Shown here one piece after another: positions 1-13,074 of a stretch of 13,074 bases of DNA. A model generated the notes under the pieces. The model had not been told where the DNA came from and ran no database searches. It worked only from the letters and a program-made list of their open reading frames with translations. Origin of the DNA: a virus; IMG/VR virus record IMGVR_UViG_3300045988_024578, positions 1 through 13,074 of that record; one strand, given 5' to 3'. The translations under genes were made by a program, and so were the position numbers. The number at the start of each line of letters is the position of its first letter. The first letter of the stretch is position 1.

Positions 1-106
1 CACGTAATAGCAGATTGCACAAAATTTTCTTCCCCGACCCCCTATTTTTTGTGCAAAATGTCAATAGACACAAAATATAGTACCCCCGCCCCATAGGGTA
101 GGGGAG
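1..106. repeat. Left inverted terminal repeat (106 bp)
   Basis: Bases 1-106 equal the reverse complement of 12969-13074 with no mismatch on manual comparison. Identity stops at 107 (T, versus A in the right copy). Confidence 0.95.
15..56. repeat. Perfect 10-bp inverted repeat inside the ITR (potential hairpin in displaced ssDNA); mirrored at 13019-13060
   Basis: TTGCACAAAA (15-24) and TTTTGTGCAA (47-56) are exact reverse complements with a 22-nt spacer. Related CACAAAAT words recur at 18-25 and 69-76. Confidence 0.85.
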
Positions 107-117
107 TATAGCAATTT

Positions 118-171
118 TTGCAATGTATAAAGCAACATATACAATTTAGTATGTGGTATACTATATATAAT
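118..171 (+). promoter_or_regulatory. Early promoter cluster (sigma-A/sigma-70 type)
   Basis: TTGCAA (118-123), a 16-nt spacer, then TACAAT (140-145). Also an extended -10 TGgTATACT (154-162) and a perfect TATAAT (166-171). It is an AT-rich non-coding stretch just upstream of the first RBS. Confidence 0.55.
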
Positions 172-200
172 CCATTAAGACGAAGGGAGGCTATAGTACT

Positions 201-353
201 ATGAAGAAAAAAAAAGTCACGATTAAAATCACTTTAACCGATGATAAGACTACTCTGGACGGTGAGAATTTACCAGAACTGACCGAGGACGACATTATTG
301 ACAGTATCAAGGTGCTTGTCGCTCTTGCAAAGACTTTGAATTTTTTACAGTAA
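201..353 (+). CDS. Hypothetical early protein, 50 aa (below the ORF-track size cutoff)
   Basis: ATG at 201 follows GAAGGGAGG (182-190). Manual translation gives MKKKKVTIKITLTDDKTTLDGENLPELTEDDIIDSIKVLVALAKTLNFLQ, with stop TAA at 351-353. It packs tightly against the next gene. Confidence 0.55.
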   Translation: MKKKKVTIKITLTDDKTTLDGENLPELTEDDIIDSIKVLVALAKTLNFLQ

Positions 354-373
354 ACAGTAAGGAGACACGCCAA

Positions 374-646
374 ATGGAAATGCGTAAATTCATTATTGAG
401 ATTCATCCGGACGGCACACTGACATGCTGCGAATATGAGGACCCCAAGGATGCCAACAGAGCAGCAACGGACCGTGCATGGTTGGCCGGTTATCAGCAGG
501 CCCTTAAGCATTGTGAAGATCAGGTAGAATACTTAAAGAATTTTAAAGGTATTTGCCGGTCAGCCGATCTTATGTATCAGGGAGCCGAATCCGTTCGTTA
601 CGAGGTGTTATCTGCATATCGTGAATACATTAACGCCAAACATTAA
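374..646 (+). CDS. Hypothetical early protein, 90 aa
   Basis: ORF track entry; AAGGAG RBS at 359-364 about 9 nt upstream of the ATG. No motif recognised. Confidence 0.6.
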   Translation: MEMRKFIIEIHPDGTLTCCEYEDPKDANRAATDRAWLAGYQQALKHCEDQVEYLKNFKGICRSADLMYQGAESVRYEVLSAYREYINAKH

Positions 647-652
647 GTCGAA

Positions 653-691
653 ACGGCCCGCGGGCCGTCCACCGGGACCGCCCGCCCGGTG
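653..691 (+). other. Two tandem GC-rich hairpins after the second early ORF (RNA stabiliser or weak terminator)
   Basis: ACGGCCCGCGGGCCGT (653-668) is a perfect palindrome. CACCGGG (670-676) pairs with CCCGGTG (685-691). No T-tract follows, so it is not called an intrinsic terminator. Confidence 0.35.
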
Positions 692-728
692 TTGATAAGA
701 CAGGGCACATATTGAAAGGAGTTATGTT

Positions 729-1037
729 ATGGATTATCGTAACAAAAAGAGTGCAACCAGCAAGGGCGCCCGTAAATCCATCATGAGATACGTCAAGCTG
801 CCAGAATTTGAAGGCACGGTGCAGATTGAAGATGGTGAAATGTGGCTGAAATCCGGCAAATATGATGCGCCGTCTGTGTCCGTCAAGATCGACCCCGAGG
901 AGACCATTTCCGACTGGGTTCGCAAGATCACTTTGCGCAATGTTGAGCTGTCCGTTGAGGAGAACGAGAAGGGCTTTCCAGAATTGGTCATCTCTGGCCA
1001 GAGCGGCACCGATGATACCGGCGATCTGCCATTCTAA
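729..1037 (+). CDS. Early protein, 102 aa, with an SSB-like acidic C-terminal tip (candidate ssDNA-binding protein or SSB-tip mimic)
   Basis: AAGGAG (716-721) lies 7 nt before the ATG. The C-terminus ...SGTDDTGDLPF resembles the bacterial SSB tip (DDDIPF in E. coli, DDDLPF in B. subtilis). A strong terminator follows. Confidence 0.7.
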   Translation: MDYRNKKSATSKGARKSIMRYVKLPEFEGTVQIEDGEMWLKSGKYDAPSVSVKIDPEETISDWVRKITLRNVELSVEENEKGFPELVISGQSGTDDTGDLPF

Positions 1038-1042: not shown

Positions 1043-1070
1043 GGGCGGCCTATGGCCGCCCTTATTTTTT
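1043..1070 (+). terminator. Rho-independent terminator after the SSB-tip gene
   Basis: GGGCGGCC (1043-1050), loop TAT, GGCCGCCC (1054-1061), then TTATTTTTT (1062-1070). Confidence 0.8.
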
Positions 1071-1082
1071 ATAGGAGGCCCC

Positions 1083-1313
1083 ATGAAAAGTAAAGATAAC
1101 AGACTATCCTTGCTGAACTGTGATGACTCCGTGATATATCTTGCATCTGCCATTGTATACAGTGGAGTCACAAACAAAGATGTCGATTTTTTCCGTTCCG
1201 AATGGGTAAAAATCATCTTTGACGGTCTTGGCATTGAAATGGACCCTCTGGACTGGTATTATATGATCTTAGATAGGAAGGAGAGACAGAAGCATGGCAG
1301 TAGGCGCAGCTAA
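1083..1313 (+). CDS. Hypothetical early protein, 76 aa
   Basis: AGGAGG at 1073-1078, ATG at 1083. Overlaps the next ORF by 20 nt. No motif recognised. Confidence 0.55.
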   Translation: MKSKDNRLSLLNCDDSVIYLASAIVYSGVTNKDVDFFRSEWVKIIFDGLGIEMDPLDWYYMILDRKERQKHGSRRS

Positions 1314-1893
1314 AGCAAGCGCAACCCTCAAATACAGCTCCGAGCTGTACACTCCCTATGCCTTGGAGTCTTGGCCTGATAATCAGATGCGCAAAGAGTA
1401 TTCCCGATTGCGTGACATTGCCCAGAAACGTATTAAGCGCCTATCAAAAGACCCCATAAGCGGCACAAGCGACGTTTATAAAGAATTCGCTGGAGGTTTC
1501 CCGACGCTAAAATCTATGCGGGGAGACCGTAAAGCATTGGAGCAGGCCCTAGCGGATGTATCGCGTTTTGTGCGCTCCAAAGGCTCCACCGTTGGCGGTG
1601 CGCGTGCTGAGTTCGAACAAAAAATGAAAGTCGGTGGCATTGACATTGCTGACGTTCCCGAAGATCAATACATAGCCCTGTCTGAGTGGTGGGAGATCGT
1701 TAAAGCGTCGGGCGTGTATTACTATCCGTCTGACCAGCCGGTCATGTACTGGCGCGAGAAAGGCGGCTACAACGTCAGTATTGACGATTTTGTAAAGTGG
1801 CAGCAAGGTGAGGTCAATTATGGCAAAGAGTGGGACTATAGCGAGGGGAGCAGTTCTGCCGACCTGCGCGGAGGCTTTGGTGGAGGCTTGTGA
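1294..1893 (+). CDS. Candidate terminal protein (TP) for protein-primed replication, 199 aa
   Basis: It lies immediately upstream of, and overlapping, the protein-primed PolB, like phi29 gene 3 before gene 2. N-terminal KEYSRLRDIAQKRIKRL resembles phi29 TP AEYARLVKNTKAKIAR. C-terminal WDYSEG resembles the phi29 priming-loop FDSEG (Ser232). Both phi29 sequences are recalled from memory. Confidence 0.55.
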   Translation: MAVGAAKASATLKYSSELYTPYALESWPDNQMRKEYSRLRDIAQKRIKRLSKDPISGTSDVYKEFAGGFPTLKSMRGDRKALEQALADVSRFVRSKGSTVGGARAEFEQKMKVGGIDIADVPEDQYIALSEWWEIVKASGVYYYPSDQPVMYWREKGGYNVSIDDFVKWQQGEVNYGKEWDYSEGSSSADLRGGFGGGL

Positions 1894-3910
1894 CTACAAT
1901 CCGGTCCCCTGGCTCATGGAGCACTTGGACAGGAAGCACACTAAAGGCAAAAAGCGCAAAACGAACAAGAAGCGTTTGTATGTTGATATGCCGTGCGCGT
2001 TTGATATTGAGACAAGCCGCGTGTGTGTTGACGCCGACGACAACCCCCACACCATTATGTATATCTGGCAATGTCAATTAGGTCTGGATATTACCATTAT
2101 CGGCAGGACGTGGGACGAGTGGTTGAACTTTACGGGGGCGATCAGCGATTATTTACAGGCGAACAGCGGCCCTCAAGGTAACTGGTTTTTGTGTATGTAT
2201 GTCCATAATCTCGCCCATGAATTTCAATACTTATCGGGTGTTCTGGATTTTGGCCCGGGCGATGTGTTTGCCAGCAAGCCCCGCCGGGTCTTAAAATGTG
2301 ACAACCGAGCTATTGAATACCGATGCAGTATGCGTCATAGCAACTTGTCCCTTGATGCTTGGGGCAAGCAGCTGGGTGCACCTCATGCCAAATTGACCGG
2401 TACACTCGATTATTCAAGAGTGCGGTATCCCTGGACTCCCCTGACATCTACAGAATTAGCGTATTGCATCAACGATGTTCGGTGCATTGTGGAGTGCCTG
2501 TTAATCGAGATGAAGCGAGACGGTGACGACCTGTATACAATACCATTAACGCGCACCGGCTATGTTAGACGGATGGCCCGCGAAGCAATGTATAAATGGG
2601 GCATTAAAAAAGCCAAGCGCCTACTGCCATCATGGGACCTATACCAGATGTTGCGGGAAGCCTTCCGAGGCGGCGACACCCACGCCAATCGGTATTATGT
2701 TGGGCTCCATCTGGAAAACGTCGGATCCGTGGATATGTCGAGTGCATACCCAGCCGTACAATGTGAATGCTACTTCCCGATGACTCCATTTAGGCAGGAG
2801 CCGGCCACTGTCGAACGGCTGATGCAATGTATGAGACACGGCAAGGCGTGCTTAATTCGCTTGCAACTAAAAGGTCTACGCCAGCGCTTTAAGTGGTGGG
2901 GGTTTCCGTATATCCCCCTTGCGAAGGTCCGGCACTGTGAAGGATACATAAACGACAATGGCCGGCTGTTGTCTGCTGAGCATCTCGAGATCACAATAAC
3001 AGATATTGACTTTAGAATCATTGCAAAAGAATATGATTGGGACGCTCTTAACGTTCTGGACCTTTACACATCTGATTATGGCAGATTGCCTAAACCGTTG
3101 ACGGATTGTGTAAAAGAGAGCTACGCCGGCAAGACATCCCTTAAAGGCGTAGCCGGTCAAGATTTGTATTATGTCAAAGCCAAGGGCGATCTTAACAGTT
3201 ACTATGGTATGACCGCGCAGGACCCCTTGCAGCTGGACACACTTTTTGACGAGGACGACCCCGACAATCTTTGGAGCGAATGCACCGACGACCCAGAGGG
3301 CAGTTATAACGATCACCGCCCTCATTTGTATCTCCCGTACCAATGGGGCGTATGGACTACTGCCCATACTCGCAAGCGCCTTAAAATAGCGCAGTGGGCC
3401 GCGGGCAAGAATGGCGTGTACTGCGACACCGACAGTGTCAAATATATGGGTAGTATTGATTTGTCGGAGTTTAACAAAGCCGTAAAGCAGCTCGCAAAAG
3501 ACAATGGCGCTTGCGCTACAGACCCCAAAGGCAACACTCATTATATGGGCGTATACGAGCAGGAGCGCAGCTATGCGGAGTTTATGACGTGGGGCGCTAA
3601 AAAATACGCAACTACCTATAAAAAAGGCGGGCCGATCACTACTACCATAGCAGGAGTCAGCAAGCGGAAGGGCGGTCTAGAGCTGGCCCTGTGGGGTGGT
3701 TTTGAAGTGTTCAAACCTGGATTCACTTTTTGTTTTGCGGCAGGCAATCAGGTTATCTATAATGACCGCCCCAATGTGCCCGATTTTGTGGTTGACGGGC
3801 ATACGGTACACATCACAAGAAACCTGTGTATTTGTGATAATACCTATACGTTGGGTATTACTGACGAATACGCAAAGATATTAGGGTACAAGATTATGGA
3901 GGTTATCTGA
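1820..3910 (+). CDS. Family-B DNA polymerase, protein-primed (phi29 gp2-like)
   Basis: ExoI FDIETS, ExoII-like HNLAHEF, ExoIII YCINDV, motif A DMSSAYP, motif B KGDLNSYYG, motif C YCDTDS and KxY (AKKYA), all in canonical order. Start set at ATG 1820, 6 nt after AAGGTGAGG (1805-1813). The ORF opens at GTG 1808, and ATG 1916 is an RBS-less alternative. Confidence 0.93.
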   Translation: MAKSGTIARGAVLPTCAEALVEACDYNPVPWLMEHLDRKHTKGKKRKTNKKRLYVDMPCAFDIETSRVCVDADDNPHTIMYIWQCQLGLDITIIGRTWDEWLNFTGAISDYLQANSGPQGNWFLCMYVHNLAHEFQYLSGVLDFGPGDVFASKPRRVLKCDNRAIEYRCSMRHSNLSLDAWGKQLGAPHAKLTGTLDYSRVRYPWTPLTSTELAYCINDVRCIVECLLIEMKRDGDDLYTIPLTRTGYVRRMAREAMYKWGIKKAKRLLPSWDLYQMLREAFRGGDTHANRYYVGLHLENVGSVDMSSAYPAVQCECYFPMTPFRQEPATVERLMQCMRHGKACLIRLQLKGLRQRFKWWGFPYIPLAKVRHCEGYINDNGRLLSAEHLEITITDIDFRIIAKEYDWDALNVLDLYTSDYGRLPKPLTDCVKESYAGKTSLKGVAGQDLYYVKAKGDLNSYYGMTAQDPLQLDTLFDEDDPDNLWSECTDDPEGSYNDHRPHLYLPYQWGVWTTAHTRKRLKIAQWAAGKNGVYCDTDSVKYMGSIDLSEFNKAVKQLAKDNGACATDPKGNTHYMGVYEQERSYAEFMTWGAKKYATTYKKGGPITTTIAGVSKRKGGLELALWGGFEVFKPGFTFCFAAGNQVIYNDRPNVPDFVVDGHTVHITRNLCICDNTYTLGITDEYAKILGYKIMEVI

Positions 3911-4971
3911 TGATTAAACTGTACACCGATGAAGGTTGGCCGAACTTTTCCGAGAAGGACGGCATCTTGTCAACTGGGGCACCCATTATTTTTATATGGG
4001 GCGGACGTGGCACCGGAAAGACCTATGGAGCGCTAAAGCACGTCCACCAGACCGAAGAGGAATTTCTGTATTTGCGTCGCACGCCACAGCAGGCGGAACT
4101 TATTTGTGCATCACCCAGTATGTGGCCGTGGTCTCCGTTGAACGACGATCTACAAACGCATTATGCCCCGTTCAAATTGCCCAAGATAGCGGGACTATAT
4201 GAAGTGGGCAACGCAGGAGCCTACACGGATACAGGAGCGCCCATTAAACCAGCCAAGATGTCGGGCGTCGTGGGAAGTGTGGTCACTCTGGCTCGCACCC
4301 GTGGTTTTTCAAGTCCTCATACCAACATAATCATTTTAGACGAATACCAGAAAGAAGAATCCGACTATTACCGACGCGGCGAGGGCGTGGGCCTTGCCAA
4401 CATTTATGAAACGGTCAACCGTAACCGCGAACTGCAAGGGCAAAAGCCCTTGACGCTGTTGTGTATGTCAAACGCTGTTGGCATGGCAAACCCCTATTAT
4501 ATGCAATGGGAGATCACAGACACAGTAGAAAAGATGATCGGGACTAAAGAGCGCGTAAAGCTGCTTGCTGATAAAGGCATTTTGCTGATTGATCTTGTCG
4601 ATAGTCCCATCTCAAAGGAAAAAGCAAATACGGCCCTCTATAGGTCCATGACCGGCACAGACTTTTACAGATCAGCTATTGAAAACCAATACAGCGCAGA
4701 AGAAAAGAGTTTGGTTGTGTCCCGGCCCCTCAGGGAATACTACCCGCTTGTACAAATTGGCCGGTGCTGCATCTACGAGCACAAGAGCAAGCCGTTATAC
4801 TATGTTTGCCGTCACAGATCGGGCGAGATGCCCACTTACGGCACCGGCGACTATGAGCGGAAACGTTTTAGGGCCGCGTATGGGTACATCTGGCCCGCGT
4901 ACTTGCAGCGGCAACTTGAATTTGAGCGGTACTCGGATGAAATTTTCTTCCGCGAGTATTGCGGTACTTGA
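3910..4971 (+). CDS. DNA encapsidation (packaging) ATPase, phi29 gp16-like
   Basis: Walker A GGRGTGKT and Walker B IIILDEY. LYLRRTPQQAE and VNRNRE...LLCMSNAVGMANPYY match recalled gp16 segments IYVRRYKPELA and FRNRERVRCICLSNAVSVVNPYF. The start overlaps the polymerase stop (TGATG). Confidence 0.9.
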   Translation: MIKLYTDEGWPNFSEKDGILSTGAPIIFIWGGRGTGKTYGALKHVHQTEEEFLYLRRTPQQAELICASPSMWPWSPLNDDLQTHYAPFKLPKIAGLYEVGNAGAYTDTGAPIKPAKMSGVVGSVVTLARTRGFSSPHTNIIILDEYQKEESDYYRRGEGVGLANIYETVNRNRELQGQKPLTLLCMSNAVGMANPYYMQWEITDTVEKMIGTKERVKLLADKGILLIDLVDSPISKEKANTALYRSMTGTDFYRSAIENQYSAEEKSLVVSRPLREYYPLVQIGRCCIYEHKSKPLYYVCRHRSGEMPTYGTGDYERKRFRAAYGYIWPAYLQRQLEFERYSDEIFFREYCGT

Positions 4972-4995: not shown

Positions 4996-5001
4996 AAAGT
5001 T

Positions 5002-5071
5002 AATCCCCGGTGCCCACAGGCAGCCCCCAGAAGGGGCGGGCAGGCGTCAGCCAGCGCAAGAACCGGGGATT
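5002..5071 (+). ncRNA. Candidate structured RNA element in the leader of the late operon
   Basis: AATCCCCGGT (5002-5011) is the exact reverse complement of ACCGGGGATT (5062-5071), a 10-bp closing helix. Inside, GCCCC (5023-5027) pairs with GGGGC (5033-5037), extended by GCCC (5012-5015) with GGGC (5038-5041). It lies 7 nt past the -10 box and about 13 nt before the next RBS. Confidence 0.35.
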
Positions 5072-5098: not shown

Positions 5099-5257
5099 AT
5101 GGATGCTAATACTGTGATACAGGCTATTTCTAACGTTGGTTTTCCCATTGCCGCGTTCTTGCTGATGTGGTATCAGTGTAACACCGTGGTTAAGGAGAAT
5201 ACCGCGGCTATTACTGAAATGCGACTCGCTCTGGACGAGATCAAGAAGGAGAGCTAA
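5099..5257 (+). CDS. YvrJ-like small membrane protein, 52 aa (possible holin-like lysis or membrane factor)
   Basis: AAGGAGG (5085-5091) then ATG at 5099. MDANTVIQAISNVGFPIAAFLLMWYQCNTVVKENTAAITEMRLALDEIKKES has one hydrophobic helix plus an amphipathic tail. The NVGFPI...LL pattern matches my recollection of the YvrJ family. The track ORF 4679-5257 is the same frame over-extended upstream. Confidence 0.6.
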   Translation: MDANTVIQAISNVGFPIAAFLLMWYQCNTVVKENTAAITEMRLALDEIKKES

Positions 5258-5260
5258 CTT

Positions 5261-5494
5261 ATGGGTTGCTATATCATTTTTGCCCAAGCGATCACAAACG
5301 AACGTGCGTTCCTGCTGGCTGATTTGTGCGCTCGTTTGAGTATCGGCTATTATAGCGACTGGGCAGACGTTGCTCACACGCGGCAGTGCTGCGCAGTGGG
5401 CCCCGTCACCAAAGGAGACAAAGACCAGGTCATTAAATGCCTGGCGCATGACACATACGTTGTAATGGAGGCGACTAAAGTTGAGAATCAGTGA
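5261..5494 (+). CDS. Hypothetical protein, 77 aa (weak call)
   Basis: This is the only + strand ORF filling the gap. AAGGAG lies about 11 nt upstream. It is Cys-rich with no recognisable motif. Confidence 0.35.
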   Translation: MGCYIIFAQAITNERAFLLADLCARLSIGYYSDWADVAHTRQCCAVGPVTKGDKDQVIKCLAHDTYVVMEATKVENQ

Positions 5495-5846
5495 AAAAGC
5501 GGCCCTCGCTATGGCCGGATACACCAAAGCAGAGATCGAAGCAATGGAGAAGCCCCAGCCCGCGCCGCAGCCTGCTCCGCAGCCCGCTCCCCAGCCCGCG
5601 CCGCAGCCTGCTCCGCAGCCCGCTCCGCAGCCCGCACCGCAGCCCGTCCAGCAGTACGATGGCCTTGAGACCCTGTTGCAGCAGCTTTTGCAGGGTCAAC
5701 AGACGACAGCGCAGGCAATGCAGACTATGACCCAGACGTTGCAGGCAAACGCGCTGGGCCTTGGCATCCAGCAGCAGCCGACGGCAGATGCCGCCACTGT
5801 GACGGCCCGAATTATCGACCCGACCTATGGAAAGGAAGTGAAGTAA
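5481..5846 (+). CDS. Candidate scaffolding protein with a (PQPA)n linker, 121 aa
   Basis: TTG start 9 nt after GGAGG (5467-5471). It lies directly upstream of the capsid gene, as phi29 gp7 does. It has a Gln-rich helical C-terminal half, and its stop abuts the MCP start. Confidence 0.45.
   Translation: MRISEKAALAMAGYTKAEIEAMEKPQPAPQPAPQPAPQPAPQPAPQPAPQPAPQPVQQYDGLETLLQQLLQGQQTTAQAMQTMTQTLQANALGLGIQQQPTADAATVTARIIDPTYGKEVK
5553..5648 (+). repeat. In-frame tandem repeat encoding PQPA x7 plus PQPV
   Basis: The 36-nt unit CCCCAGCCCGCGCCGCAGCCTGCTCCGCAGCCCGCT occurs twice identically (5553-5588 and 5589-5624). A 24-nt partial copy follows. Confidence 0.9.
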
Positions 5847-7127: not shown

Positions 7128-7158
7128 ACCGGCGGGCATCTGCCCGCCGGTTATTTTT
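7128..7158 (+). terminator. Rho-independent terminator after the capsid gene
   Basis: ACCGGCGGGCA (7128-7138) and TGCCCGCCGGT (7141-7151) form a perfect 11-bp stem. TTATTTTT follows. Confidence 0.85.
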
Positions 7159-7172: not shown

Positions 7173-8588
7173 ATGCAAGCTACCTTTTATCAGTTTGCAA
7201 AGCGCACAAATAGCACAAAGCGGCCCAGCGGTGGGCAGGGGTTTGGAATTGACCTTAAAGCCCCTTGTAATATCATTGACCCGGAGATCAACATTGCAAC
7301 CCAGAGCGACCCCACCGGGTACAATTATTGCTACCTCCCCACATTCAGCCGGTATTACTGGGTGAAGAACTGGACATATTCGGACGGGCTTTGGAATGCG
7401 TCGCTGACTGTTGACACGCTTGCAAGCTATCGCGACCAGATCGGCAATTCCACTGAATACGTTGTGAGATCTTCCGCCAAATATGACCCTAAAATCGTAG
7501 ATAATTTGTATCCGACCAAAGCAACGATTAGCACGAGAACCATCTATACAAATTCTACACCGTTTACGGACGACCCGGAAAATGGTGGGCAAGGATTCTT
7601 CGTTGTGGTGGTCAATGCACCCGGGTATGTGTCTTTTGGCGGCGCCATTTATCTTGCAATGAGCGGGACCACATTTCAAAAGCTGATGGCGGCTCTTTTA
7701 CAAAATACGGATTACTTGAATATCAGTGCGGACGAAATCAGCAGCAACTTGACTAAAGCGTTGTTTAACCCTATTCAGTACATTTCAAAAGCGTTTTGGA
7801 TACCGTGTGGCAATGCCGCTATTGGTACTCCAATCACTGAAATTCCCGTCGGTTGGTGGAAACTGCAGAATATTGGGAATGCTTATGTCATAGCGAATAA
7901 TAATGACAAGCAGGTATTCACGTTTAGCATTTATACCCCTCATCATCCGCAGCACATTACAAGAGGAGTTTATACAGACGGGGCCCCCTATTCCGAGTAC
8001 ACGTTGTATTGTCCGCCCTTTGGGGAAATTAAATTAAATGCAAACTTGTTTGTACTGCAAAGTACATTGCATTGCCGCTTAACTGTTGACTACCGCACAG
8101 GCGACGCAATACTGGACTTGTCATTTAATAAAGATTTTAACACTATCTTTTTCTCCACGTCAAGCAACGTCTCGGTACCTGTACAGCTGGCACAGATCGC
8201 CACCAATGTAGATGAATTGGCAAGCCTTGGCGGACTAGTTCAAACCGCCGTTGGTGCCATTGCCGGCGGTATTGAATCCTTTTTTGGCGGGGGCGATATT
8301 GCCAACGGTATCGCCTCAGGTGCCCAGCAGATGACCGTTTCGAGTCAATCTAAAGGAGGAGGGGCCAGCGTCGCAAAATATGGCATCACGCCATATTTAA
8401 CAGGGGCTTTTTATGATCTTGTCGACGACAACAACGAGCACCACGGTCGGCCCCTGTGTCAGCGGGTGCAACTGTTCAGTATCCCGGGGTTTATCATGGT
8501 GGACGACCCTGACATTGCGCTGCCCGCAACAGCCGCCGAGATTGACAGCGTTAAAAGCTATATGAGAAATGGATTCTTTTTAGAGTAG
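7173..8588 (+). CDS. Tail knob / distal tail tube protein (phi29 gp9-like)
   Basis: The N-terminal YCYLPTFSRYYWVKNWTY...LTVDTLASY resembles the gp9 N-domain. A Gly-rich hydrophobic loop (GGLVQTAVGAIAGGIESFFGGGDIANGIASGAQ) resembles the gp9 membrane-active loop. The C-terminal HGRPL...IPGF...EIDSVKSYMRNGF resembles the gp9 C-terminus. Confidence 0.72.
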   Translation: MQATFYQFAKRTNSTKRPSGGQGFGIDLKAPCNIIDPEINIATQSDPTGYNYCYLPTFSRYYWVKNWTYSDGLWNASLTVDTLASYRDQIGNSTEYVVRSSAKYDPKIVDNLYPTKATISTRTIYTNSTPFTDDPENGGQGFFVVVVNAPGYVSFGGAIYLAMSGTTFQKLMAALLQNTDYLNISADEISSNLTKALFNPIQYISKAFWIPCGNAAIGTPITEIPVGWWKLQNIGNAYVIANNNDKQVFTFSIYTPHHPQHITRGVYTDGAPYSEYTLYCPPFGEIKLNANLFVLQSTLHCRLTVDYRTGDAILDLSFNKDFNTIFFSTSSNVSVPVQLAQIATNVDELASLGGLVQTAVGAIAGGIESFFGGGDIANGIASGAQQMTVSSQSKGGGASVAKYGITPYLTGAFYDLVDDNNEHHGRPLCQRVQLFSIPGFIMVDDPDIALPATAAEIDSVKSYMRNGFFLE

Positions 8589-8600: not shown

Positions 8601-9140
8601 ATGGCAGTATATAAACAGTGCATTACTGATGTATCACCGATCAGAGTGACCGCCGGTTATCCTGCGTACTCTGACGGCAGCCCTCACCGGGGCATTGACA
8701 CCGTCCACGGAGACCATAAAGCCTACGCGCCCGAGGCGGGCACCGTGGTAGTGGCCCAGCATTGGAATGGCAGCACCTCGGGCGACCAGTCATGGGGCAA
8801 TATGATTAAAGTGCGAATGGCCGACGGCACGACATGGCGAGCCGCACACTTTGCCTCGCAGATTTGGAACGTGGGAGATACCATCACAAAGGGGCAGTTT
8901 ATCGGCACCCAGGGAGAGACCGGCAACGCAACGGGCATTCACACACACTGGGAATATGCCGATGCAGCCGGAAACCTGATGGACCCTGCCGGCATTATCA
9001 GGATCCCGAATCAGGTGGGCACTTGGGACGTCGAATGGGACTCCGGCGGAGGCCCTGGCCCGGGTCCCGGGCCGTGGCCTACTGGCAAATTGCCGGTATG
9101 GTTGCTGTTTAAGATGGCGAAGGGAGGTCGGCTGTTGTGA
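8601..9140 (+). CDS. Peptidase M23 (LytM-type peptidoglycan endopeptidase), probably virion-associated and/or lytic
   Basis: HxxxD (H29-RGI-D33) and HxH (H114-T-H116) zinc motifs, plus GETGNATG upstream of HTHWE. A C-terminal GGGPGPGPGP linker is followed by KLPVWLLFKMAKGGRLL. Confidence 0.85.
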   Translation: MAVYKQCITDVSPIRVTAGYPAYSDGSPHRGIDTVHGDHKAYAPEAGTVVVAQHWNGSTSGDQSWGNMIKVRMADGTTWRAAHFASQIWNVGDTITKGQFIGTQGETGNATGIHTHWEYADAAGNLMDPAGIIRIPNQVGTWDVEWDSGGGPGPGPGPWPTGKLPVWLLFKMAKGGRLL

Positions 9141-10078
9141 GTGCTCCCTACAGCTACGAACAGATTAACGCCCATGTGTCGCCGGTGACTCCCTCCGTGA
9201 TGCACACAAAAGGAAATAGCCTGTCCTATTATTTCCGCAAGTATCTATTTCTTGAGGCCGTGTCTATGGTACGATGGACGCTCCCCGACACGTGGCCCAG
9301 TAACCGCTTGCAGTATCTGGTCTTTGGCGCGGGCGGTGTTACGGTGTTTAAAACTGACCGTTATGGCATGGTATATGACAGAATGGGACTGACCGGCATT
9401 AACATTTTTTACAATCCCACACACTCCATTATTGCCAACCCTTTTATTAAAGGGTCCCATTATTTGCAAATCGGGAAACAATGCGAAATCATCAATTTAC
9501 AGCCCGATTACCGCGGGATGGTTGATATTGTGGCATATTACGGGGACCTGATGGCACTTGCCGCCCAGACCATCCAGAGCAATTTAATCAATAGCCGCCT
9601 TGCCTATGTGTTTGCCGCCGGCAACAAGGCCGGCGCAGAATCTTTTAAAAAGATGTTTGACCAGATCATGCAGGGCGACCCCGCGGTATTCGTTGATTCG
9701 TCTTTGCTCAAAGCACCCAAAAATGGGGCATCCGGGCAAGCCCCTTGGATGTATTTTGCAACCGACCTTAAAGGGAACTTCATCACAAACGAATTGCTTA
9801 CAGCCCTTAAAACCATTAAAGCGCTGTTCGATACGGAAGTTGGCATTCCGAACACAAATACCAGCAAGAAAGAACGGATGCTGACCGATGAAGTTAATTC
9901 TAACAACGTTGAAACAGCCGCTAAGGCGTCGCTCTGGTTGGACAACTTGCAGCGCGGTTGTGAGCGGGTGCACAAGCTGTTTGGAATTGACAAATCTACT
10001 TTGTGGGTAGATTGGCGTTTTCCGCCCAATACTGGCGCACAGGAGGTGAATAACGATGCAAGCAACCTTGAGCTTTAA
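9137..10078 (+). CDS. Portal / upper collar connector protein (phi29 gp10-like)
   Basis: GIPNTNTSKKERMLTDEVNSNNVETAAKASLWLDNLQRGCERVHKLFGI matches recalled gp10 [49 protein letters not shown]. Size is 313 aa versus 309 aa. GTG start 9 nt after GGGAGG, overlapping the upstream stop (GTGA). Confidence 0.9.
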   Translation: MSAPYSYEQINAHVSPVTPSVMHTKGNSLSYYFRKYLFLEAVSMVRWTLPDTWPSNRLQYLVFGAGGVTVFKTDRYGMVYDRMGLTGINIFYNPTHSIIANPFIKGSHYLQIGKQCEIINLQPDYRGMVDIVAYYGDLMALAAQTIQSNLINSRLAYVFAAGNKAGAESFKKMFDQIMQGDPAVFVDSSLLKAPKNGASGQAPWMYFATDLKGNFITNELLTALKTIKALFDTEVGIPNTNTSKKERMLTDEVNSNNVETAAKASLWLDNLQRGCERVHKLFGIDKSTLWVDWRFPPNTGAQEVNNDASNLEL

Positions 10079-10721
10079 CGGGTTATTGGCAGGTTATCCG
10101 GAACTGTTCGACGATTTAAAAGTTCCCGATAGTGTATCTAAAAATACTGTCTGCAATCAATTACTGTTTGATACACTGGAATTAGAAGTATTGTATGCGG
10201 ACGGCCCCACGATGCGCAGGGCACTGGGAGTCTATTCTGAAACCATGCTGCCGAGCTGGACCCGGTACGCTGAGGCCCTGGGCCTTGAATACGACGCTTT
10301 GGCGTCCGATGACCGAACCAGAACAACCGACCACTCAGGGACCGGCACCGGCACAAACGGCGTCAAGGGAACGACAACCAGAGTGCCGAACTTGACCACC
10401 ACTGGCCAGAATAACGGCAGTGACAGCACTACCCGGGATGTTACGGGTTTTGACAGCGGGACATTGCAAACCGCAGAGAGGAGCACTACGGCCCTCGGTA
10501 CTGGGAACACCATTACCAGCAGCGGTACGGATACGACCACAACCGATCAGACAACCACCTCGGAGTCGCACGACGGCTACAACGATACCGTGACCGAGAA
10601 GGGCCGAGCAGGGCGAGACCCTCAAGACCTCATCGAAAAAGAGTTGACCCTTGCAATGGAAAATGCAGTTCATAAAATCGTTATGGACATCCGGGCTAAC
10701 TTTTGCCTGCTGGTATATTAA
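10056..10721 (+). CDS. Lower collar / head-tail adaptor candidate (phi29 gp11-like position)
   Basis: It follows the portal with a 23-nt overlap, with AGGAGG at 10041-10046. It has a helical N-domain, then a divergent LEYDALASDDRT motif where collar proteins carry EYNP-x-NYDR-like motifs (from memory). A long T/S/G/N-rich beta-hairpin-like segment and a C-terminal helix follow. Confidence 0.55.
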   Translation: MQATLSFNGLLAGYPELFDDLKVPDSVSKNTVCNQLLFDTLELEVLYADGPTMRRALGVYSETMLPSWTRYAEALGLEYDALASDDRTRTTDHSGTGTGTNGVKGTTTRVPNLTTTGQNNGSDSTTRDVTGFDSGTLQTAERSTTALGTGNTITSSGTDTTTTDQTTTSESHDGYNDTVTEKGRAGRDPQDLIEKELTLAMENAVHKIVMDIRANFCLLVY

Positions 10722-10733
10722 GGAGATGCAATT

Positions 10734-12896
10734 ATGAGTGTCAATCCTATTCACAAAGCACCCTACACCAATTTCCATGACCTCAATCTTGATTGGATTA
10801 TTGAGGTTTTGAATGAGTTTAATACCAAACTGACGGATTTCGTCAGTTTGGCCACAATCAAGTACGCGGACCCCATCCAGTGGGACATCACTAGCCAGTA
10901 CGAGGCTAACACCGTTGTAGTGGATAGCAACGGCAACGCATATCTGTCAGTGCGGCCGGTGCCGTCCGGTGTTTCTCTGGACCGCTCAGAGTACTGGACC
11001 AAGATTGGTAATTTCGACGAGCTGTGGGCTGATGTGAAACGGGCCATTACTCCCCTCGACGAGGGCCACAGCCCCACCGCCACAGCCGATAGAGCTGTCA
11101 ACGATCTTGTCTGGGTCAATGGGGCGCTGGTGCGCGTCACAAAAGCAATGACCGCCGGTGACGCCTACGTGCCCGGCTCTAACTGCGTGAGCAGCTCCAC
11201 AAATGAAGTCTTGCATTACCTTATCACGGCATTTAATGATGGCCTGAGCGCCGAGCAGACGGCCCGGGAAGAGGCCGACACAAAGCTCCAGACGGCTATT
11301 GGAGCGGAGACAACGGCCCGGGAGAACGCCGACACGAAGCTCCAGACGGCTATTGACGCGGAGAAAACGGCCCGGGAGAACGCCGACAGCGACCTTCAGA
11401 CAGCCATCGACACTGAGAAACAGACCCGGGAGGATGCCGACAACCAGCTACAAAATAGCATCAATCAAATGCAGACATATGTGTCGGCACCGGGAGCAGG
11501 TATTAAAGCTAACGACCAGAGTGCAGCAGCACAAAATACATCGACGCTACAACAGCTGTTGGATGCCGGAGAAACAGTATATTTTCCAAGCGGAACGTAT
11601 TATATGTCGGCAGCCCTATATATGAAGAGAGGTTGCGGAATAATCGGCGAGAACATGCGTGACACCGCCCTTATATGGACTACCGCCAGCAATGGAATTA
11701 TTTACGACCTCGAGTACAAGGCCCCCAATACATACGATGACATTTATTTTACGATTCGTATCGAATCGATGGCGCTTTATGGAGTAGGGGCCCTCAACGG
11801 GGCAGGATCTGGCATTTATATCCGTAACAAAACATGGATGGTCACGGCAAACCAAAATCACGAAGAATATCGCAAGATCAAAGGCGATTCCTATGCGCTG
11901 GAGTGCCGCAATAGTGTTATCAGGGACATTATCGTCTCTGGGTGGTCCATTGGCATCAATTCGAGCTTATATATTGCATATGTATCCATTATCAACGCTT
12001 TTGTGGATACATGCGATTTGGGAATCGACGCAAAATTTTCTGATTCGGAATTATGTAATATTGTAGTGACTTTTTGCTATAATGGCGTTTTGTGCGAAAC
12101 CGAGGCAAACAAATGGTGTAACCTGGCGATTAAGATGAACGGATGGCGTGCATCTTATGATGCTACGCACACCATTACGGGCTCGATCGCTTTGCATTTG
12201 TATCACGCAAAACGTGAACTATTTTGCAACACTGAGGTACAGGAGAGCTACGCTAACGGAGTTGTTGTAGAACAATCAAGTAACAACATCGTGTTTTCTG
12301 GACTGCTGCTCGATGCAAATGGATTTAAAGTTCCTGTAGGAACAGAGGCGAATAATATTGGCGCACAAATATTGGGAGGTTGCTACAATATTCGGGGCAC
12401 GATCCTTGCTACAAACAAAAATGATACAAAATGTCAGCGCGTCGGCATTTATGTATCACACGATTGTGGCAATATTGATCTCCAATATGCCGAATATGAA
12501 CAACAGATCAGCGCATGGACCCTTGGACAGAATACTTGCCGCAGCATCACGACGGCAAGGATCAACAACATTACAAAGATTACAGCAACCAACTTTACAA
12601 ACATGGTTGATGCAAGTTTTGCGTCTTTTGATGGCAGGCATTTGCATATTGCAATTCACGGCTATTTCATCAATAATGTCCCTAAAGGCAGCACATTTTC
12701 AGTTGCGCCCGCGTTTGGTGATATACCTTTTGCAAGTCTCCCCGGTAACGTTTACAGAGATATTTATCTGTATAATTCCACTGACAACGAACTTGTTCCC
12801 GCATCCTATGATAACACTACCGCAAGTGTTATCATTCAAGCCCCTGTACCAACAGGTAAACAAATCAACTGTGAGATCACTTTTGATATGCTTTAA
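10734..12896 (+). CDS. Tailspike / pre-neck appendage-like receptor-binding depolymerase (pectate-lyase-type beta-helix)
   Basis: An N-terminal anchor (FHDLNLDWIIEVLNEF) is followed by a coiled-coil repeat stalk. GIKANDQSAAAQNTSTLQQLLDAGETVYFPSGTYY is typical of the Pectate_lyase_3-type beta-helix N-cap. It is the largest and last gene, analogous to phi29 gp12. Confidence 0.8.
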   Translation: MSVNPIHKAPYTNFHDLNLDWIIEVLNEFNTKLTDFVSLATIKYADPIQWDITSQYEANTVVVDSNGNAYLSVRPVPSGVSLDRSEYWTKIGNFDELWADVKRAITPLDEGHSPTATADRAVNDLVWVNGALVRVTKAMTAGDAYVPGSNCVSSSTNEVLHYLITAFNDGLSAEQTAREEADTKLQTAIGAETTARENADTKLQTAIDAEKTARENADSDLQTAIDTEKQTREDADNQLQNSINQMQTYVSAPGAGIKANDQSAAAQNTSTLQQLLDAGETVYFPSGTYYMSAALYMKRGCGIIGENMRDTALIWTTASNGIIYDLEYKAPNTYDDIYFTIRIESMALYGVGALNGAGSGIYIRNKTWMVTANQNHEEYRKIKGDSYALECRNSVIRDIIVSGWSIGINSSLYIAYVSIINAFVDTCDLGIDAKFSDSELCNIVVTFCYNGVLCETEANKWCNLAIKMNGWRASYDATHTITGSIALHLYHAKRELFCNTEVQESYANGVVVEQSSNNIVFSGLLLDANGFKVPVGTEANNIGAQILGGCYNIRGTILATNKNDTKCQRVGIYVSHDCGNIDLQYAEYEQQISAWTLGQNTCRSITTARINNITKITATNFTNMVDASFASFDGRHLHIAIHGYFINNVPKGSTFSVAPAFGDIPFASLPGNVYRDIYLYNSTDNELVPASYDNTTASVIIQAPVPTGKQINCEITFDML
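11259..11460 (+). repeat. About 3.5 tandem 54-nt (18-aa) repeats inside the tailspike gene
   Basis: Units start at 11259, 11313, 11367 and about 11424, each beginning AC(G)GCCCGGGA. They encode TAREEADTKLQTAIGAET / TARENADTKLQTAIDAEK / TARENADSDLQTAIDTEKQ / TREDADNQLQNSI. Confidence 0.9.
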
Positions 12897-12900
12897 TATC

Positions 12901-12919
12901 TAGGAATAGTTCCTATTTT
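12901..12919 (+). terminator. Weak rho-independent terminator after the tailspike gene
   Basis: TAGGAA (12901-12906), loop TAG, TTCCTA (12910-12915), then TTTT. The stem is short and AT-rich. Confidence 0.4.
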
Positions 12920-13006
12920 GTGCCCTCTCCCCTACCCTATGGGGCGGGGGTACTATATTTTGTGCCCTCTCCCCTACCCTATGGGGCGGGGGTACTATAT
13001 TTTGTG
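12914..13006. repeat. 42-bp direct tandem repeat, 2 identical copies plus a 9-nt partial third, spanning the right ITR boundary
   Basis: TATTTTGTGCCCTCTCCCCTACCCTATGGGGCGGGGGTACTA occurs at 12914-12955 and again at 12956-12997. TATTTTGTG occurs at 12998-13006. The left end (78-106) carries only one truncated copy. Confidence 0.92.
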
Positions 13007-13074
13007 TCTATTGACATTTTGCACAAAAAATAGGGGGTCGGGGAAGAAAATTTTGTGCAATCTGCTATTACGTG
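12969..13074. repeat. Right inverted terminal repeat (106 bp)
   Basis: Reverse complement is identical to 1-106. Confidence 0.95.

What the first reader, a model, noticed from the sequence alone, without database searches (positions are those of the whole stretch)
1..13074. Entire 13.07-kb protein-primed podophage genome, near the lower size limit for tailed phages
The ITRs coincide exactly with the window ends. Between them are only about 16 genes. Even so, TP, PolB, packaging ATPase, capsid, tail knob, portal, collar and tailspike are all identifiable. phi29 and Cp-1 are about 19.3 kb, so this is roughly a third smaller; Mycoplasma phage P1 at about 11.7 kb is the smallest I recall. It may represent a minimal tailed-virion blueprint and possibly an undescribed lineage. 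I saw no integrase or repressor, which suggests a virulent lifestyle.
Basis: partly seen in the sequence, partly recalled or inferred. Interest (0 to 1): 0.7.

Follow-up and report, generated by a model that had tools for sequence, protein, structure and literature searches.

The report
Common small gut phi29-like phage genome
The window is an essentially complete 13-kb genome of a protein-primed, phi29-like short-tailed phage from a very common, already heavily sampled human-gut lineage, so its small size is ordinary; it also carries a hammerhead ribozyme and a conserved, undescribed folded RNA ahead of its late genes.

Summary
A perfect 106-nt inverted terminal repeat sits exactly at both window ends, and 16 same-strand genes lie between. 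PolB, gp16-type ATPase, phi29-type capsid protein, gp10-type portal, gp11-type lower collar, holin and M23 peptidase are supported by profiles. Terminal protein and tail knob are supported by position only. Independent assemblies stop at the same place, most often 4 nt further out (5'-GGGACACG), so the window probably lacks about 4 nt per end.

The lineage is not undescribed: 184 IMG/VR contigs share 92-96% PolB identity, GenBank MT836263 is 87% identical, and a 2024 review probably already clusters it. It is not near a size record either, because cultured relatives of 10.4-12.3 kb exist. It is a new species-level member of a known kind.

Two side findings matter more. A type II hammerhead ribozyme lies at 646-709. 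A 70-nt three-way-junction RNA lies at 5002-5071, between a strong promoter and the holin gene. This RNA is conserved with covariation across phages sharing only about 30% ATPase identity, and it has no Rfam match. Its topology and covarying bulge/loop complementarity resemble phi29 pRNA. A cis-acting late-operon leader is the more likely reading.

The parts
1..106 (.). Left inverted terminal repeat. It contains repeated GCACAAAAT / TTTTGTGC motifs. The true end is probably 4 nt further out (GGGA).
201..353 (+). g1, a 50-aa early protein of unknown function
   Evidence: ORF; intact in 47 relatives; no family hit
374..646 (+). g2, a 90-aa early protein of unknown function
646..709 (+). Type II hammerhead ribozyme with a U3-A8 core variant. 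Predicted cleavage is after C669 (GUC|C). A pseudoknot joins loop I (GCCC) to the 3' tail (GGGC).
729..1037 (+). g3, a 102-aa variable early gene found in only about a quarter of relatives
1043..1061 (+). Intrinsic-terminator-like hairpin with a U run
1083..1313 (+). g4, a 76-aa early protein of unknown function
1294..1893 (+). Terminal-protein candidate, 199 aa, all-alpha, with a basic EYxRLRDIAQKRIKRL helix and an invariant Ser146. Assigned by position immediately upstream of, and overlapping, PolB.
   Evidence: no similarity to phi29 TP
1808..3910 (+). Protein-primed family B DNA polymerase. The start codon is ambiguous: GTG 1808, ATG 1820, or a later in-frame ATG near 1916.
3910..4971 (+). 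gp16-type DNA packaging ATPase, 353 aa
4968..4995 (+). Strong sigma-70-like promoter (TTGACT-16-TATAAT, 11 of 12 matches), taken as the late promoter
   Evidence: conserved in relatives
5002..5071 (+). Conserved 70-nt three-way-junction RNA. P1 5002-5010/5063-5071. P2 5011-5015/5038-5042. 7-nt bulge 5016-5022. P3 5023-5027/5033-5037 with loop CAGAA. P4 5044-5047/5054-5057 with loop CAGCCA. The bulge GGC is complementary to the loop GCC.
5099..5257 (+). Holin, 52 aa
   Evidence: phrog_4898, E 1.9e-6
5261..5494 (+). g9, a 77-aa conserved protein of unknown function
   Evidence: intact in 82 of 82 relatives
5481..5846 (+). Scaffold-protein candidate, 121 aa, with a (PQPA)n repeat encoded by a 12-nt tandem repeat at 5540-5660. 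Assigned by position upstream of the MCP.
5848..7122 (+). phi29-type major capsid protein
7128..7151 (+). Strong intrinsic-terminator-like hairpin inside the late operon
7173..8588 (+). Tail-knob (gp9) candidate, 471 aa, with a hypervariable central part
   Evidence: Position and synteny. Divergent homologs weakly hit phrog_2248, which is the phi29 gp9 family. No direct hit.
8601..9140 (+). M23 metallopeptidase; cell-wall hydrolase, tail-associated and/or endolysin
9137..10078 (+). gp10-type portal (upper collar/connector), with a GTG start
10056..10721 (+). gp11-type lower collar / tail tube protein
10734..12896 (+). Tailspike with a conserved N-terminal anchor, 18-aa coiled-coil repeats (11249-11452), a pectate-lyase-like beta-helix and a variable C-terminus
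12914..12997 (+). Two perfect 42-nt tandem copies of the inner ITR segment. Copy number varies in relatives.
12969..13074 (.). Right inverted terminal repeat

Best explanation
The window is a near-complete linear genome (about 13,082 bp once the four missing terminal bases per end are added). It belongs to a probably virulent phi29-like podophage from an abundant human-gut lineage.

Shown:
- 106-nt ITRs sit at the physical ends.
- The genome encodes a protein-primed-type PolB, a gp16-type ATPase, a phi29-type capsid protein, a gp10 portal, a gp11 lower collar, a holin and an M23 peptidase.
- All genes lie on one strand, the same layout as the cultured Amedibacillus phages AD70P2/P3.

Inferred mechanism:
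- A terminal protein, most likely the 199-aa product at 1294-1893 with Ser146 as the candidate priming residue, primes PolB at both ends. The 5'-GGG terminal reiteration would allow sliding-back.
- Host RNA polymerase transcribes a left (early) unit. The type II hammerhead at 646-709 cuts that transcript between g2 and g3.
- A consensus promoter at 4968-4995 starts the structural and lysis unit.
- The first 70 nt of that unit fold into a conserved three-way-junction RNA. I think this most likely acts in cis on late expression, through attenuation, antitermination or stability. P1 followed by a U run looks terminator-like in about half of the lineages, and a strong terminator at 7128-7151 must be read through to reach the portal and tail genes.
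- Unit-length DNA is packaged by the gp16-type ATPase.
- Lysis uses the holin plus the M23 peptidase.
For: ITR at the ends. Ends reproduced in independent assemblies and never read through. Protein families. All 16 ORFs intact in relatives. Synteny with AD70P2 and with phi29 gp8-gp9-gp10-gp11-gp12. No integrase or repressor hits. Hammerhead: full-length Rfam match, with homologous copies above the gathering score, 99.4% of cells paired and C3-G8 covariation. U3-A8 is a known active natural variant, and prophage hammerheads are thought to process long transcripts (PMC3088659). Leader RNA: z-score -4.8; 99.4% of cells paired with 5 compensatory pairs; found at the same promoter-to-first-late-gene position in divergent phages, including one with a different genome layout.
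Against: - No read mapping and no protein-linked-end evidence is available.
- The terminal protein and tail knob have no detectable similarity to phi29 gp3 or gp9.
- The host is unknown. MAG bins name Collinsella, Prevotella and Butyricicoccus, which are mutually inconsistent.
- One related contig (L005) carries 55 extra bases at both ends.
- The role of the 70-nt RNA is entirely inferred. Its topology equally fits a trans-acting pRNA-like RNA.
Confidence: 0.85

Rival explanations
1. The 70-nt three-way-junction RNA (5002-5071) is the counterpart of phi29 prohead RNA (pRNA). On this reading it is a small trans-acting RNA that multimerises through bulge/loop kissing and bridges the portal vertex and the gp16-type ATPase during packaging.
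For: - The order of elements matches pRNA domain I. P1 corresponds to the A helix; P2, the 5'-side bulge and the P3 hairpin correspond to the C helix, CE loop and E hairpin; P4 corresponds to the D hairpin (pRNA anatomy from PMC5066667).
- The bulge and the P4 loop are Watson-Crick complementary, and the pairing covaries between lineages. Examples are GAGC/GCUC, GGAC/GUCC, CACC/GGUG, AAUCA/UGAUU and UAUGG/CCAUA. Cognate pairs average 3.93 bp against 2.12 bp for non-cognate pairs, and 0 of 200,000 permutations reach the observed sum.
- These phages have a short gp16-type ATPase, which in phi29 docks on the prohead through pRNA.
- The RNA has its own promoter, and in several lineages a terminator-like end.
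- The apical loop CGGAA is conserved.
Against: - No Rfam pRNA hit.
- It is only 70 nt, with a 9-14-bp P1, against 120-174 nt in phi29.
- It always lies between a promoter and the first late gene, even when the ATPase gene is elsewhere (L087). That position suits a cis leader.
- The portals of these phages lack the basic N-terminus of phi29 gp10. K+R in the first 25 residues is 8 for phi29, 1 for the window, 2 for AD70P2 and 0 for L087.
- A bulge/loop contact can equally be intramolecular.
- The helices were annotated by hand.
Confidence: 0.3
2. The contig is not a complete genome. On this reading it is a fragment, or the ITR is an assembly artefact such as a fold-back or chimera.
For: Fold-back artefacts do occur in this lineage. 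The 18-kb contig L006/L095 turns back on itself at the equivalent of window position 9079. L005 has extra bases at both ends.
Against: About 25 independent contigs of 13.1-13.9 kb carry ITRs of 55-189 nt at both ends. 77 contig ends stop within 0-9 nt of the same sequence and none reads through. Some ends are fused directly to sequencing adapters. The gene set is complete and syntenic with cultured phages.
Confidence: 0.03
3. The phage is helper-dependent, like Acinetobacter phage Phanie, whose virions must bind an unrelated myophage tail to be infectious. It would then not be an autonomous minimal virion.
For: The 2024 review suggests that small phi29-like phages of Gram-negative hosts may share Phanie's strategy (PMC11476376). 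PolB is about 35% identical to Phanie's.
Against: The window encodes its own knob candidate, a full-length lower collar, a 720-aa tailspike, a holin and a peptidase. Its closest cultured relatives by gene order are the Amedibacillus phages. The review links the helper strategy to shortened lower-collar proteins.
Confidence: 0.05

Closest known systems
Uncultured gut phage contigs of the same genus-level lineage (GenBank MT836263.1; IMG/VR contigs such as IMGVR_UViG_3300045988_090747 = L041; probably 'Virus sp. ctxAI8', MCP cluster 13 of PMC11476376)
   Same: Same gene order. PolB 92-96%, ATPase 95-99% and portal 93-96% identical. Same ITR sequence, hammerhead and leader RNA.
   Different: The best whole-genome similarity is 88% (L041). 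I read that, on the usual ICTV nucleotide-similarity thresholds (my knowledge), as a different species within the same genus. g3, the middle of the knob gene and the tailspike C-terminus are swapped. MT836263 is truncated at both ends.
Amedibacillus phages AD70P2/AD70P3 (cultured, 12.2-12.3 kb, filed under Guelinviridae in NCBI taxonomy)
   Same: Nearly unidirectional genome with the order TP candidate, PolB, ATPase, MCP, knob, portal, lower collar, spike. The same three-way-junction RNA follows the ATPase gene.
   Different: PolB is only about 35% identical and the knob about 27%. GC is 27% against 50%. No hammerhead passed the Rfam gathering threshold in AD70P2. The endolysin is placed differently.
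Bacillus phage phi29 (Salasmaviridae)
   Same: Protein-primed PolB, gp16 ATPase, MCP, portal and lower-collar families. The late-gene order gp8-gp9-gp10-gp11-gp12 is shared.
   Different: phi29 is 19.3 kb with 6-bp ITRs, divergent early and late transcription, a head fibre and proteins p4, p5 and p6, none of which was detected here. TP and knob are not detectably similar. There is no RF00044 pRNA match. The portal lacks the basic N-terminus.
Type II hammerhead ribozymes of bacteria and prophages (Rfam RF02276; Perreault et al. 2011, PMC3088659)
   Same: Conserved core, stems I and III closed by loops, an open short stem II, and a loop-I/3'-tail pseudoknot. The location between phage genes is also typical.
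   Different: The window copy has the U3-A8 core variant and scores 35.1 bits, just under the 37-bit gathering score. Homologous copies with CUGAUGA score 44-48 bits.
phi29-family prohead RNA (pRNA, Rfam RF00044)
   Same: A three-way junction with the same order of helices, and a 5'-side bulge and a hairpin loop that are complementary and covary.
   Different: About half the size. No sequence or covariance-model similarity. It is placed as the 5' leader of the late operon rather than as a separate early gene near a genome end. No function has been tested.

Membership tests
phi29-like protein-primed podophages (Salasmaviridae / Guelinviridae / Rountreeviridae and allies) | Linear dsDNA genome with inverted terminal repeats at the physical ends | tested here: met
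   106-nt perfect ITR at the window ends. The ends are reproduced in 77 contig ends and never occur internally.
phi29-like protein-primed podophages (Salasmaviridae / Guelinviridae / Rountreeviridae and allies) | Protein-primed family B DNA polymerase | tested here: met
   PF03175 at 35.6 bits against a 25.8-bit cut-off; phrog_1907 at E 1.8e-41. The motifs FDIET, DMSSAYP, LNSYYG, YCDTDS and KKY are visible in the translation.
phi29-like protein-primed podophages (Salasmaviridae / Guelinviridae / Rountreeviridae and allies) | Terminal protein covalently bound to the 5' ends | not testable with these tools
   There is only a positional candidate (1294-1893). It is all-alpha with pLDDT 77 and an invariant Ser146. 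It shows no similarity to phi29 gp3.
phi29-like protein-primed podophages (Salasmaviridae / Guelinviridae / Rountreeviridae and allies) | gp16-type packaging ATPase, phi29-type MCP and gp10-type portal | tested here: met
   PF05894, PF25622 and PF05352 are all above their curated cut-offs.
phi29-like protein-primed podophages (Salasmaviridae / Guelinviridae / Rountreeviridae and allies) | gp11-type lower collar | tested here: met
   The family profile hits phi29 gp11 (6qz9, E 5.7e-7) and the P68 lower collar (E 0.071). PHROG 'adaptor Ad4' or 'lower collar' matches 19 and 8 of 45 members. hhalign gives 92%.
phi29-like protein-primed podophages (Salasmaviridae / Guelinviridae / Rountreeviridae and allies) | gp9-type tail knob | tested here: inconclusive
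   No PDB, Foldseek or hhalign match; the model is poor (pLDDT 59.6). There are only transitive weak hits of two divergent homologs to phrog_2248, the phi29 gp9 family (E 1.2e-4 and 5e-3), plus synteny.
Guelinviridae (as NCBI files the Amedibacillus phages) | Proteome-level relatedness to Clostridium phage members (ICTV demarcation) | not tested
   Only PolB at 35% identity and shared gene order with AD70P2 were seen. No proteomic tree was built. The review notes that the placement of the Amedibacillus phages needs clarification.
Type II hammerhead ribozyme (RF02276) | Conserved catalytic core (CUGAUGA ... GAAA ... cleavage triplet) with a C3-G8 pair | tested here: met
   The window has UUGAUAA / CGAAAC / GUC. 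Positions 3 and 8 covary: UA 23, CG 11, UG 10, other 1. U3-A8 is a known active natural variant (PMC3088659).
Type II hammerhead ribozyme (RF02276) | Stems I, II and III and the loop-I/3'-tail pseudoknot | tested here: met
   99.4% of 945 cells are paired, against 28-44% when partners are slid. Stem I shows compensatory U-A to C-G changes.
Type II hammerhead ribozyme (RF02276) | Score at or above the Rfam gathering threshold (37 bits) | tested here: inconclusive
   The window copy scores 35.1 bits (E 8.3e-6 on the local region). Homologous copies in L080, L014, L078 and L074 score 44.3-48.5 bits.
Type II hammerhead ribozyme (RF02276) | Self-cleavage | not testable with these tools
   This needs in vitro transcription of 640-715.
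Prohead/packaging RNA (pRNA, RF00044) | Match to the Rfam covariance model | tested here: not met
   No hit at E <= 1 in the window, and none at E <= 5 in 12 divergent loci.
Prohead/packaging RNA (pRNA, RF00044) | Three-way junction with an A-helix, a C-helix/CE-bulge/E-hairpin arm and a D-hairpin arm | tested here: met
   Predicted folds of more than 12 lineages. In the window lineage 99.4% of cells are paired with 5 compensatory pairs. These are predictions only.
Prohead/packaging RNA (pRNA, RF00044) | Complementary, covarying CE-bulge and D-loop | tested here: met
   Cognate pairs average 3.93 bp and non-cognate pairs 2.12 bp. 9 of 13 lineages have at least 4 bp. 0 of 200,000 permutations reach the observed sum. 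Whether the pairing is inter- or intramolecular is unknown.
Prohead/packaging RNA (pRNA, RF00044) | Binds proheads and the ATPase and is required for packaging | not testable with these tools
   Indirect evidence against: the portals lack the basic N-terminus of phi29 gp10.

The most novel reading that the evidence does not exclude
The conserved 70-nt three-way-junction RNA at 5002-5071 is the pRNA counterpart of non-Bacillus phi29-like phages. It is also present in the cultured Amedibacillus phage AD70P2. If so, a packaging RNA, so far known only from Bacillus phages, would be widespread in gut podophages that carry gp16-type ATPases.
Probability: 0.3. Interest if true: 0.85.

Novelty: new member of a known kind. 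Interest (0 to 1): 0.5.

Why it matters
The genome itself adds one more species-level member to a very common, uncultured, unclassified lineage of small gut podophages. It is useful for taxonomy, and it fixes the true termini at 5'-GGGACACG. It does not redefine the lower size limit of tailed phages.

The RNAs carry the greater value. The lineage provides a natural covariation series for the hammerhead C3-G8 pair.

It also reveals a structured RNA family with no Rfam match at the head of the late operon in many 12-14-kb phages. That RNA has the topology and the covarying bulge/loop complementarity that define pRNA. The 2016 and 2024 reviews state that pRNA is known only in Bacillus phi29-like phages. 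Other phages with gp16-type ATPases, which lack a nuclease or docking domain, are therefore left without a known adaptor.

Because a cultured phage (AD70P2) carries the motif, the question can be tested directly.

Tried and rejected
- phmmer of the TP, knob, collar and spike proteins against PDB found nothing.
- The AlphaFold model of the knob was poor (pLDDT 59.6), and Foldseek returned only noise such as lectins.
- The TP model was decent (pLDDT 77) but had no Foldseek match, including to phi29 TP.
- hhalign of the knob and TP families against phi29 gp9 and gp3 found no similarity.
- Host inference from genome contigs failed. The bins are Collinsella, Prevotella and Butyricicoccus MAGs, which are mutually inconsistent and probably binning noise.
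- An exact ITR-segment search in IMG/VR gave 0 hits, so the window itself is not in IMG/VR.
- The third homologous-protein search (lower collar) returned only relatives at 83% identity or more. The exhaustive representative search was needed to get diversity.
- Covariance model R1, built from one lineage, at first missed the distant GenBank relatives. L087 and AD70P2 were recovered only by a motif scan, an MFE fold and reading the sequences, L087 also with the descriptor.
- RNAalifold's small P2 hairpin was replaced by the P2/bulge fold that all lineages share.
- The descriptor hit in L089 at 12217-12294 looked like a stand-alone terminal RNA gene, but it lies inside an ORF and was rejected.
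- A degenerate pattern scan of IMG/VR returned only the same lineage.
- Salmonella phage Astrid has no intergenic gap after its ATPase gene, so it has no motif there.

Full report
**1. Observation**

The two ends of the window are a perfect 106-nt inverted repeat (1-106 and 12969-13074). Sixteen ORFs, all on the plus strand, fill the space between them. No tRNA is present.

Pfam and PHROG profiles identify the following:
- a protein-primed family B DNA polymerase (1808-3910; PF03175; phrog_1907, E 1.8e-41);
- a gp16-type packaging ATPase (3910-4971; PF05894);
- a phi29-type major capsid protein (5848-7122; PF25622);
- an M23 peptidase (8601-9140);
- a gp10-type portal (9137-10078; PF05352);
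- a holin (5099-5257; phrog_4898).

The 720-aa last gene has only a sub-threshold pectate-lyase-like match plus 18-aa coiled-coil repeats.

None of the 16 proteins matches an integrase or repressor family. All 16 ORFs are preserved without stop codons across dozens of related contigs, so they are real genes.

**2. The three proteins with no profile hit**

*Lower collar (10056-10721).* This assignment is confirmed. An exhaustive search found 1,379 clusters of relatives. A 45-member profile hits phi29 gp11 (PDB 6qz9, E 5.7e-7) and, more weakly, the P68 lower collar. 19 and 8 members hit the two PHROGs that contain phi29 gp11. hhalign gives 92% probability.

*Tail knob (7173-8588).* This is not confirmed by similarity.
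- No PDB hit was found with the single sequence or with the profile.
- The structural model was poor, and Foldseek returned only noise.
- hhalign against phi29 gp9 found nothing.
- The support consists of position, since the order MCP, this gene, portal, collar, spike mirrors phi29 gp8-gp9-gp10-gp11-gp12, plus weak hits of two divergent homologs to the gp9 PHROG.

*Terminal protein (1294-1893).* This is positional only.
- It overlaps the start of PolB.
- It belongs to a diverse family with a basic EYxRLRDIAQKRIKRL helix and an invariant Ser146.
- It models as all-alpha at pLDDT 77.
- It resembles phi29 TP neither by fold nor by profile.

**3. Are the ends real?**

Yes. A PolB-based scan of IMG/VR returned 184 contigs with 92-96% identical PolB. 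About 25 of the 80 fetched contigs carry ITRs of 55-189 nt at both ends and measure 13.1-13.9 kb.

Among 144 distinct related loci, 77 contig ends contain the terminal motif within a few bases of the contig end. No contig contains it internally. The commonest longest form is 5'-GGGACACGTAATAG (19 ends). The window starts at CACG, so it probably lacks GGGA at each end.

A few ends are fused to Nextera or TruSeq adapter remnants, as expected for physical DNA ends. A GGG terminal reiteration fits the sliding-back initiation known for protein-primed replication (established knowledge for phi29 and PRD1; inference here).

There are two exceptions. L005 carries 55 extra bases at both ends. The 18-kb contig L006 is a fold-back chimera that turns at the equivalent of window position 9079, not at the ITR.

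**4. Novelty of the genome**

- GenBank already has MT836263.1 (human faeces, Mexico, unannotated), 87.4% identical over 84% of the window. That record is truncated at both ends.
- The best IMG/VR match (L041) is 88% similar over 99.8% of the window. On the usual ICTV nucleotide-similarity thresholds (my knowledge), this would be a new species in an already sampled genus.
- Protein clusters of this lineage hold up to 4,426 member sequences.
- The review PMC11476376 counted more than 2,000 phi29-like entries. Its MCP cluster 13 is represented by 'Virus sp. ctxAI8' at 13,382 bp, 49.8% GC and 'Clostridia (suggested)'. Those are the length and GC of locus L017.
- On size, cultured relatives found with the PolB are smaller: Vibrio phage K58 g2 at 10,390 bp, Salmonella Astrid/astrithr at 11.6-11.7 kb, Acinetobacter Phanie at 11.9 kb and Amedibacillus AD70P2/P3 at 12.2-12.3 kb.
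- The one-directional gene layout is shared with AD70P2.

The host is unresolved. MAG bins name Collinsella, Prevotella and Butyricicoccus.

**5. Hammerhead ribozyme (side finding)**

An E-value Rfam scan gave a single hit: a full-length type II hammerhead at 646-709, starting at the stop codon of g2 and ending 20 nt before g3 (35.1 bits against a gathering score of 37).
- It is present in 73 of the 81 loci then held.
- Copies with the canonical CUGAUGA core score 44-48 bits, above the gathering threshold.
- On 45 distinct sequences, 99.4% of cells pair, against 28-44% when partners are slid. Stem I shows U-A to C-G exchanges.
- The tertiary C3-G8 pair is U-A in 23 sequences, C-G in 11, U-G in 10 and unpaired in 1.
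- The loop-I/3'-tail pseudoknot (GCCC/GGGC) is the one described for type II hammerheads.
- U3-A8 is a documented active natural variant, and hammerheads flanking prophage genes were proposed to process long transcripts (PMC3088659).

The predicted cut is after C669. This is a new member of a known kind.

**6. A conserved three-way-junction RNA (side finding)**

*Location and fold.* A consensus promoter (TTGACT-16-TATAAT, 4968-4995) follows the ATPase stop codon. The next 70 nt fold very stably (-52.8 kcal/mol for 4996-5100, z -4.8).

*Within the lineage.* The element is nearly invariant while its flanks vary. The refined structure pairs 99.4% of cells and has five compensatory pairs.

*Beyond the lineage.*
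- In a 61%-PolB relative (L084), every helix has a different sequence but the fold and position are kept.
- A covariance model built from the window lineage then found it, at the same place and on the same strand, in phages whose ATPase is only 28-37% identical to L084's. L191 scored E 3e-8, and L200, L202, L201, L192 and others were also found.
- A descriptor scan recovered it in 16 loci, against 3 hits in 423 kb of shuffled sequence.
- It is present in the cultured phage AD70P2.
- It is present in MT835998, where the ATPase lies on the other arm but the order promoter, RNA, holin, late genes is preserved.
- Rfam has no match, either in the window or in 12 divergent loci.

*Common anatomy.*
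- P1 is formed by the 5' and 3' ends (9-14 bp).
- One arm consists of P2, a 7-12-nt 5'-side bulge and a P3 hairpin capped by CGGAA (CAGAA in the window).
- A second hairpin, P4, forms the other arm.
- A junction segment, often AAGAAC, precedes the 3' strand of P1.

*Bulge/loop complementarity.* The bulge and the P4 loop are complementary, and the complementary letters differ between lineages. Examples are GAGC/GCUC, GGCA/UGCC, GGAC/GUCC, CACC/GGUG, GACC/GGUC, AAUCA/UGAUU, UAUGG/CCAUA and, in the window, GGC/GCC. Cognate pairs average 3.93 bp and non-cognate pairs 2.12 bp, and no permutation out of 200,000 reaches the observed sum. The helices were annotated by hand, and the lineages are related, so this is not a formal probability.

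**7. What the RNA does**

This helix order, together with the covarying bulge/loop complementarity, describes phi29 pRNA domain I (A helix; C helix, CE loop, E hairpin; D hairpin; PMC5066667). The reviews state that pRNA is known only in Bacillus phi29-like phages. In phi29 the gp16-type ATPase attaches to the prohead through pRNA.

Several points argue against a pRNA role:
- The RNA is half the size of pRNA.
- It always sits as the 5' leader of the first late gene.
- Its P1 is followed by a U run in about half of the lineages, which looks like a terminator or attenuator.
- The portals of these phages lack the basic N-terminus of phi29 gp10. I recall, as established knowledge, that this segment is involved in pRNA binding.
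- A bulge/loop contact can be an intramolecular tertiary contact, as in three-way-junction riboswitches.

My estimates are about 0.5 for a cis-acting leader (attenuation, antitermination or stability of the late transcript), about 0.3 for a pRNA-type packaging RNA, and the rest for other roles. The strong terminator at 7128-7151 must be read through to reach the portal and tail genes, which fits a cis role.

**8. Verdict**

The finding as written is correct in substance but ordinary. It is a near-complete genome of a common gut phi29-like podophage and a new species-level member of a known kind. It is neither record-small nor an unsampled lineage.

The unexpected content is RNA: a type II hammerhead in the early unit, and a widely conserved RNA motif with no Rfam match at the head of the late unit. 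The motif's pRNA-like anatomy makes an old question experimentally approachable, namely whether non-Bacillus phi29-like phages use a packaging RNA.

Noticed in passing
window 646-709 (+): Type II hammerhead ribozyme between g2 and g3. The core is the U3-A8 variant. It is conserved in 73 of the 81 loci held at that point, with covariation of the C3-G8 pair. Relatives with the canonical core pass the Rfam gathering score.
   Followed up: yes
window 5002-5071 (+); also L084 4267-4336, L087 1045-1125, L085 (AD70P2) about 6400-6470 (-), and L183-L206 just 3' of the ATPase gene: Conserved 70-nt three-way-junction RNA directly after a strong promoter and before the holin gene. It has no Rfam match. 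Helices covary across phages with about 30% ATPase identity. The bulge and the P4 loop are complementary and covary, giving a pRNA-like topology.
   Followed up: yes
window ends; L030, L038, L070, L071, L074, L075 and others: Related contigs most often begin GGGACACGTAATAG, four bases beyond the window's CACG. The true genome probably ends in 5'-GGG, a terminal reiteration suited to sliding-back. A few contig ends are fused to Nextera or TruSeq adapter remnants.
   Followed up: yes
window 12914-12997: Two perfect 42-nt tandem copies of the inner ITR segment sit at the right end only, each containing a hairpin TACCCTATGGGGCGGGGGTA. Relatives such as L078 and L057 carry more copies, so the copy number varies.
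   Followed up: partly
window 729-1037, 7500-8400 and 11500-12900: There are three hypervariable modules. g3 is present in only 24 of 83 relatives. The middle of the knob candidate occurs in two allelic types, about 55% and about 95% identical. The tailspike C-terminus is shared by only 15 of 63 relatives. This looks like mosaic exchange of host-interaction parts.
   Followed up: partly
L006 / L095 (IMGVR_UViG_3300045988_033841, 18,010 bp): The only relative much longer than 14 kb is a fold-back assembly chimera. The sequence reverses on itself at the equivalent of window position 9079.
   Followed up: yes
window 5540-5660: A 12-nt tandem repeat encodes (PQPA)n in the scaffold-protein candidate.
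   Followed up: no
window 11249-11452: 54-nt (18-aa) tandem coiled-coil repeats (TAREEADTKLQTAIxAE) lie in the tailspike neck. The copy number seems to differ in relatives, with extra repeat matches in L005 and L080 ending inside the repeats.
   Followed up: partly
window 1043-1078 and 7128-7166: Two similar units consist of a GC-rich terminator hairpin followed by TTATTTTT(T)ATAGGAGG (terminator plus ribosome-binding site). One follows g3 and one follows the capsid gene. The second lies in the middle of the late operon, upstream of the knob, portal and tail genes.
   Followed up: no
window 9137-9260; L085, L087 portals: Portal N-termini in this group are not basic. K+R in the first 25 residues is 0-2, against 8 in phi29 gp10.
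   Followed up: partly
window 8601-9140: After a (GP)n linker, the M23 peptidase ends in a hydrophobic/basic tail (WPTGKLPVWLLFKMAKGGRLL). This could be a membrane or virion anchor.
   Followed up: no
L088 (MT836587.1) 8491-8563 (-): A related 13.7-kb gut podophage carries a tRNA gene (64.8 bits), which is unusual for such small genomes.
   Followed up: no
L087 (MT835998.1): A relative with 45% PolB identity has a different layout, with convergent arms: TP, PolB and ATPase lie on one strand and the late genes on the other. It also has a tandem repeated hairpin unit directly downstream of PolB (10917-10990).
   Followed up: partly
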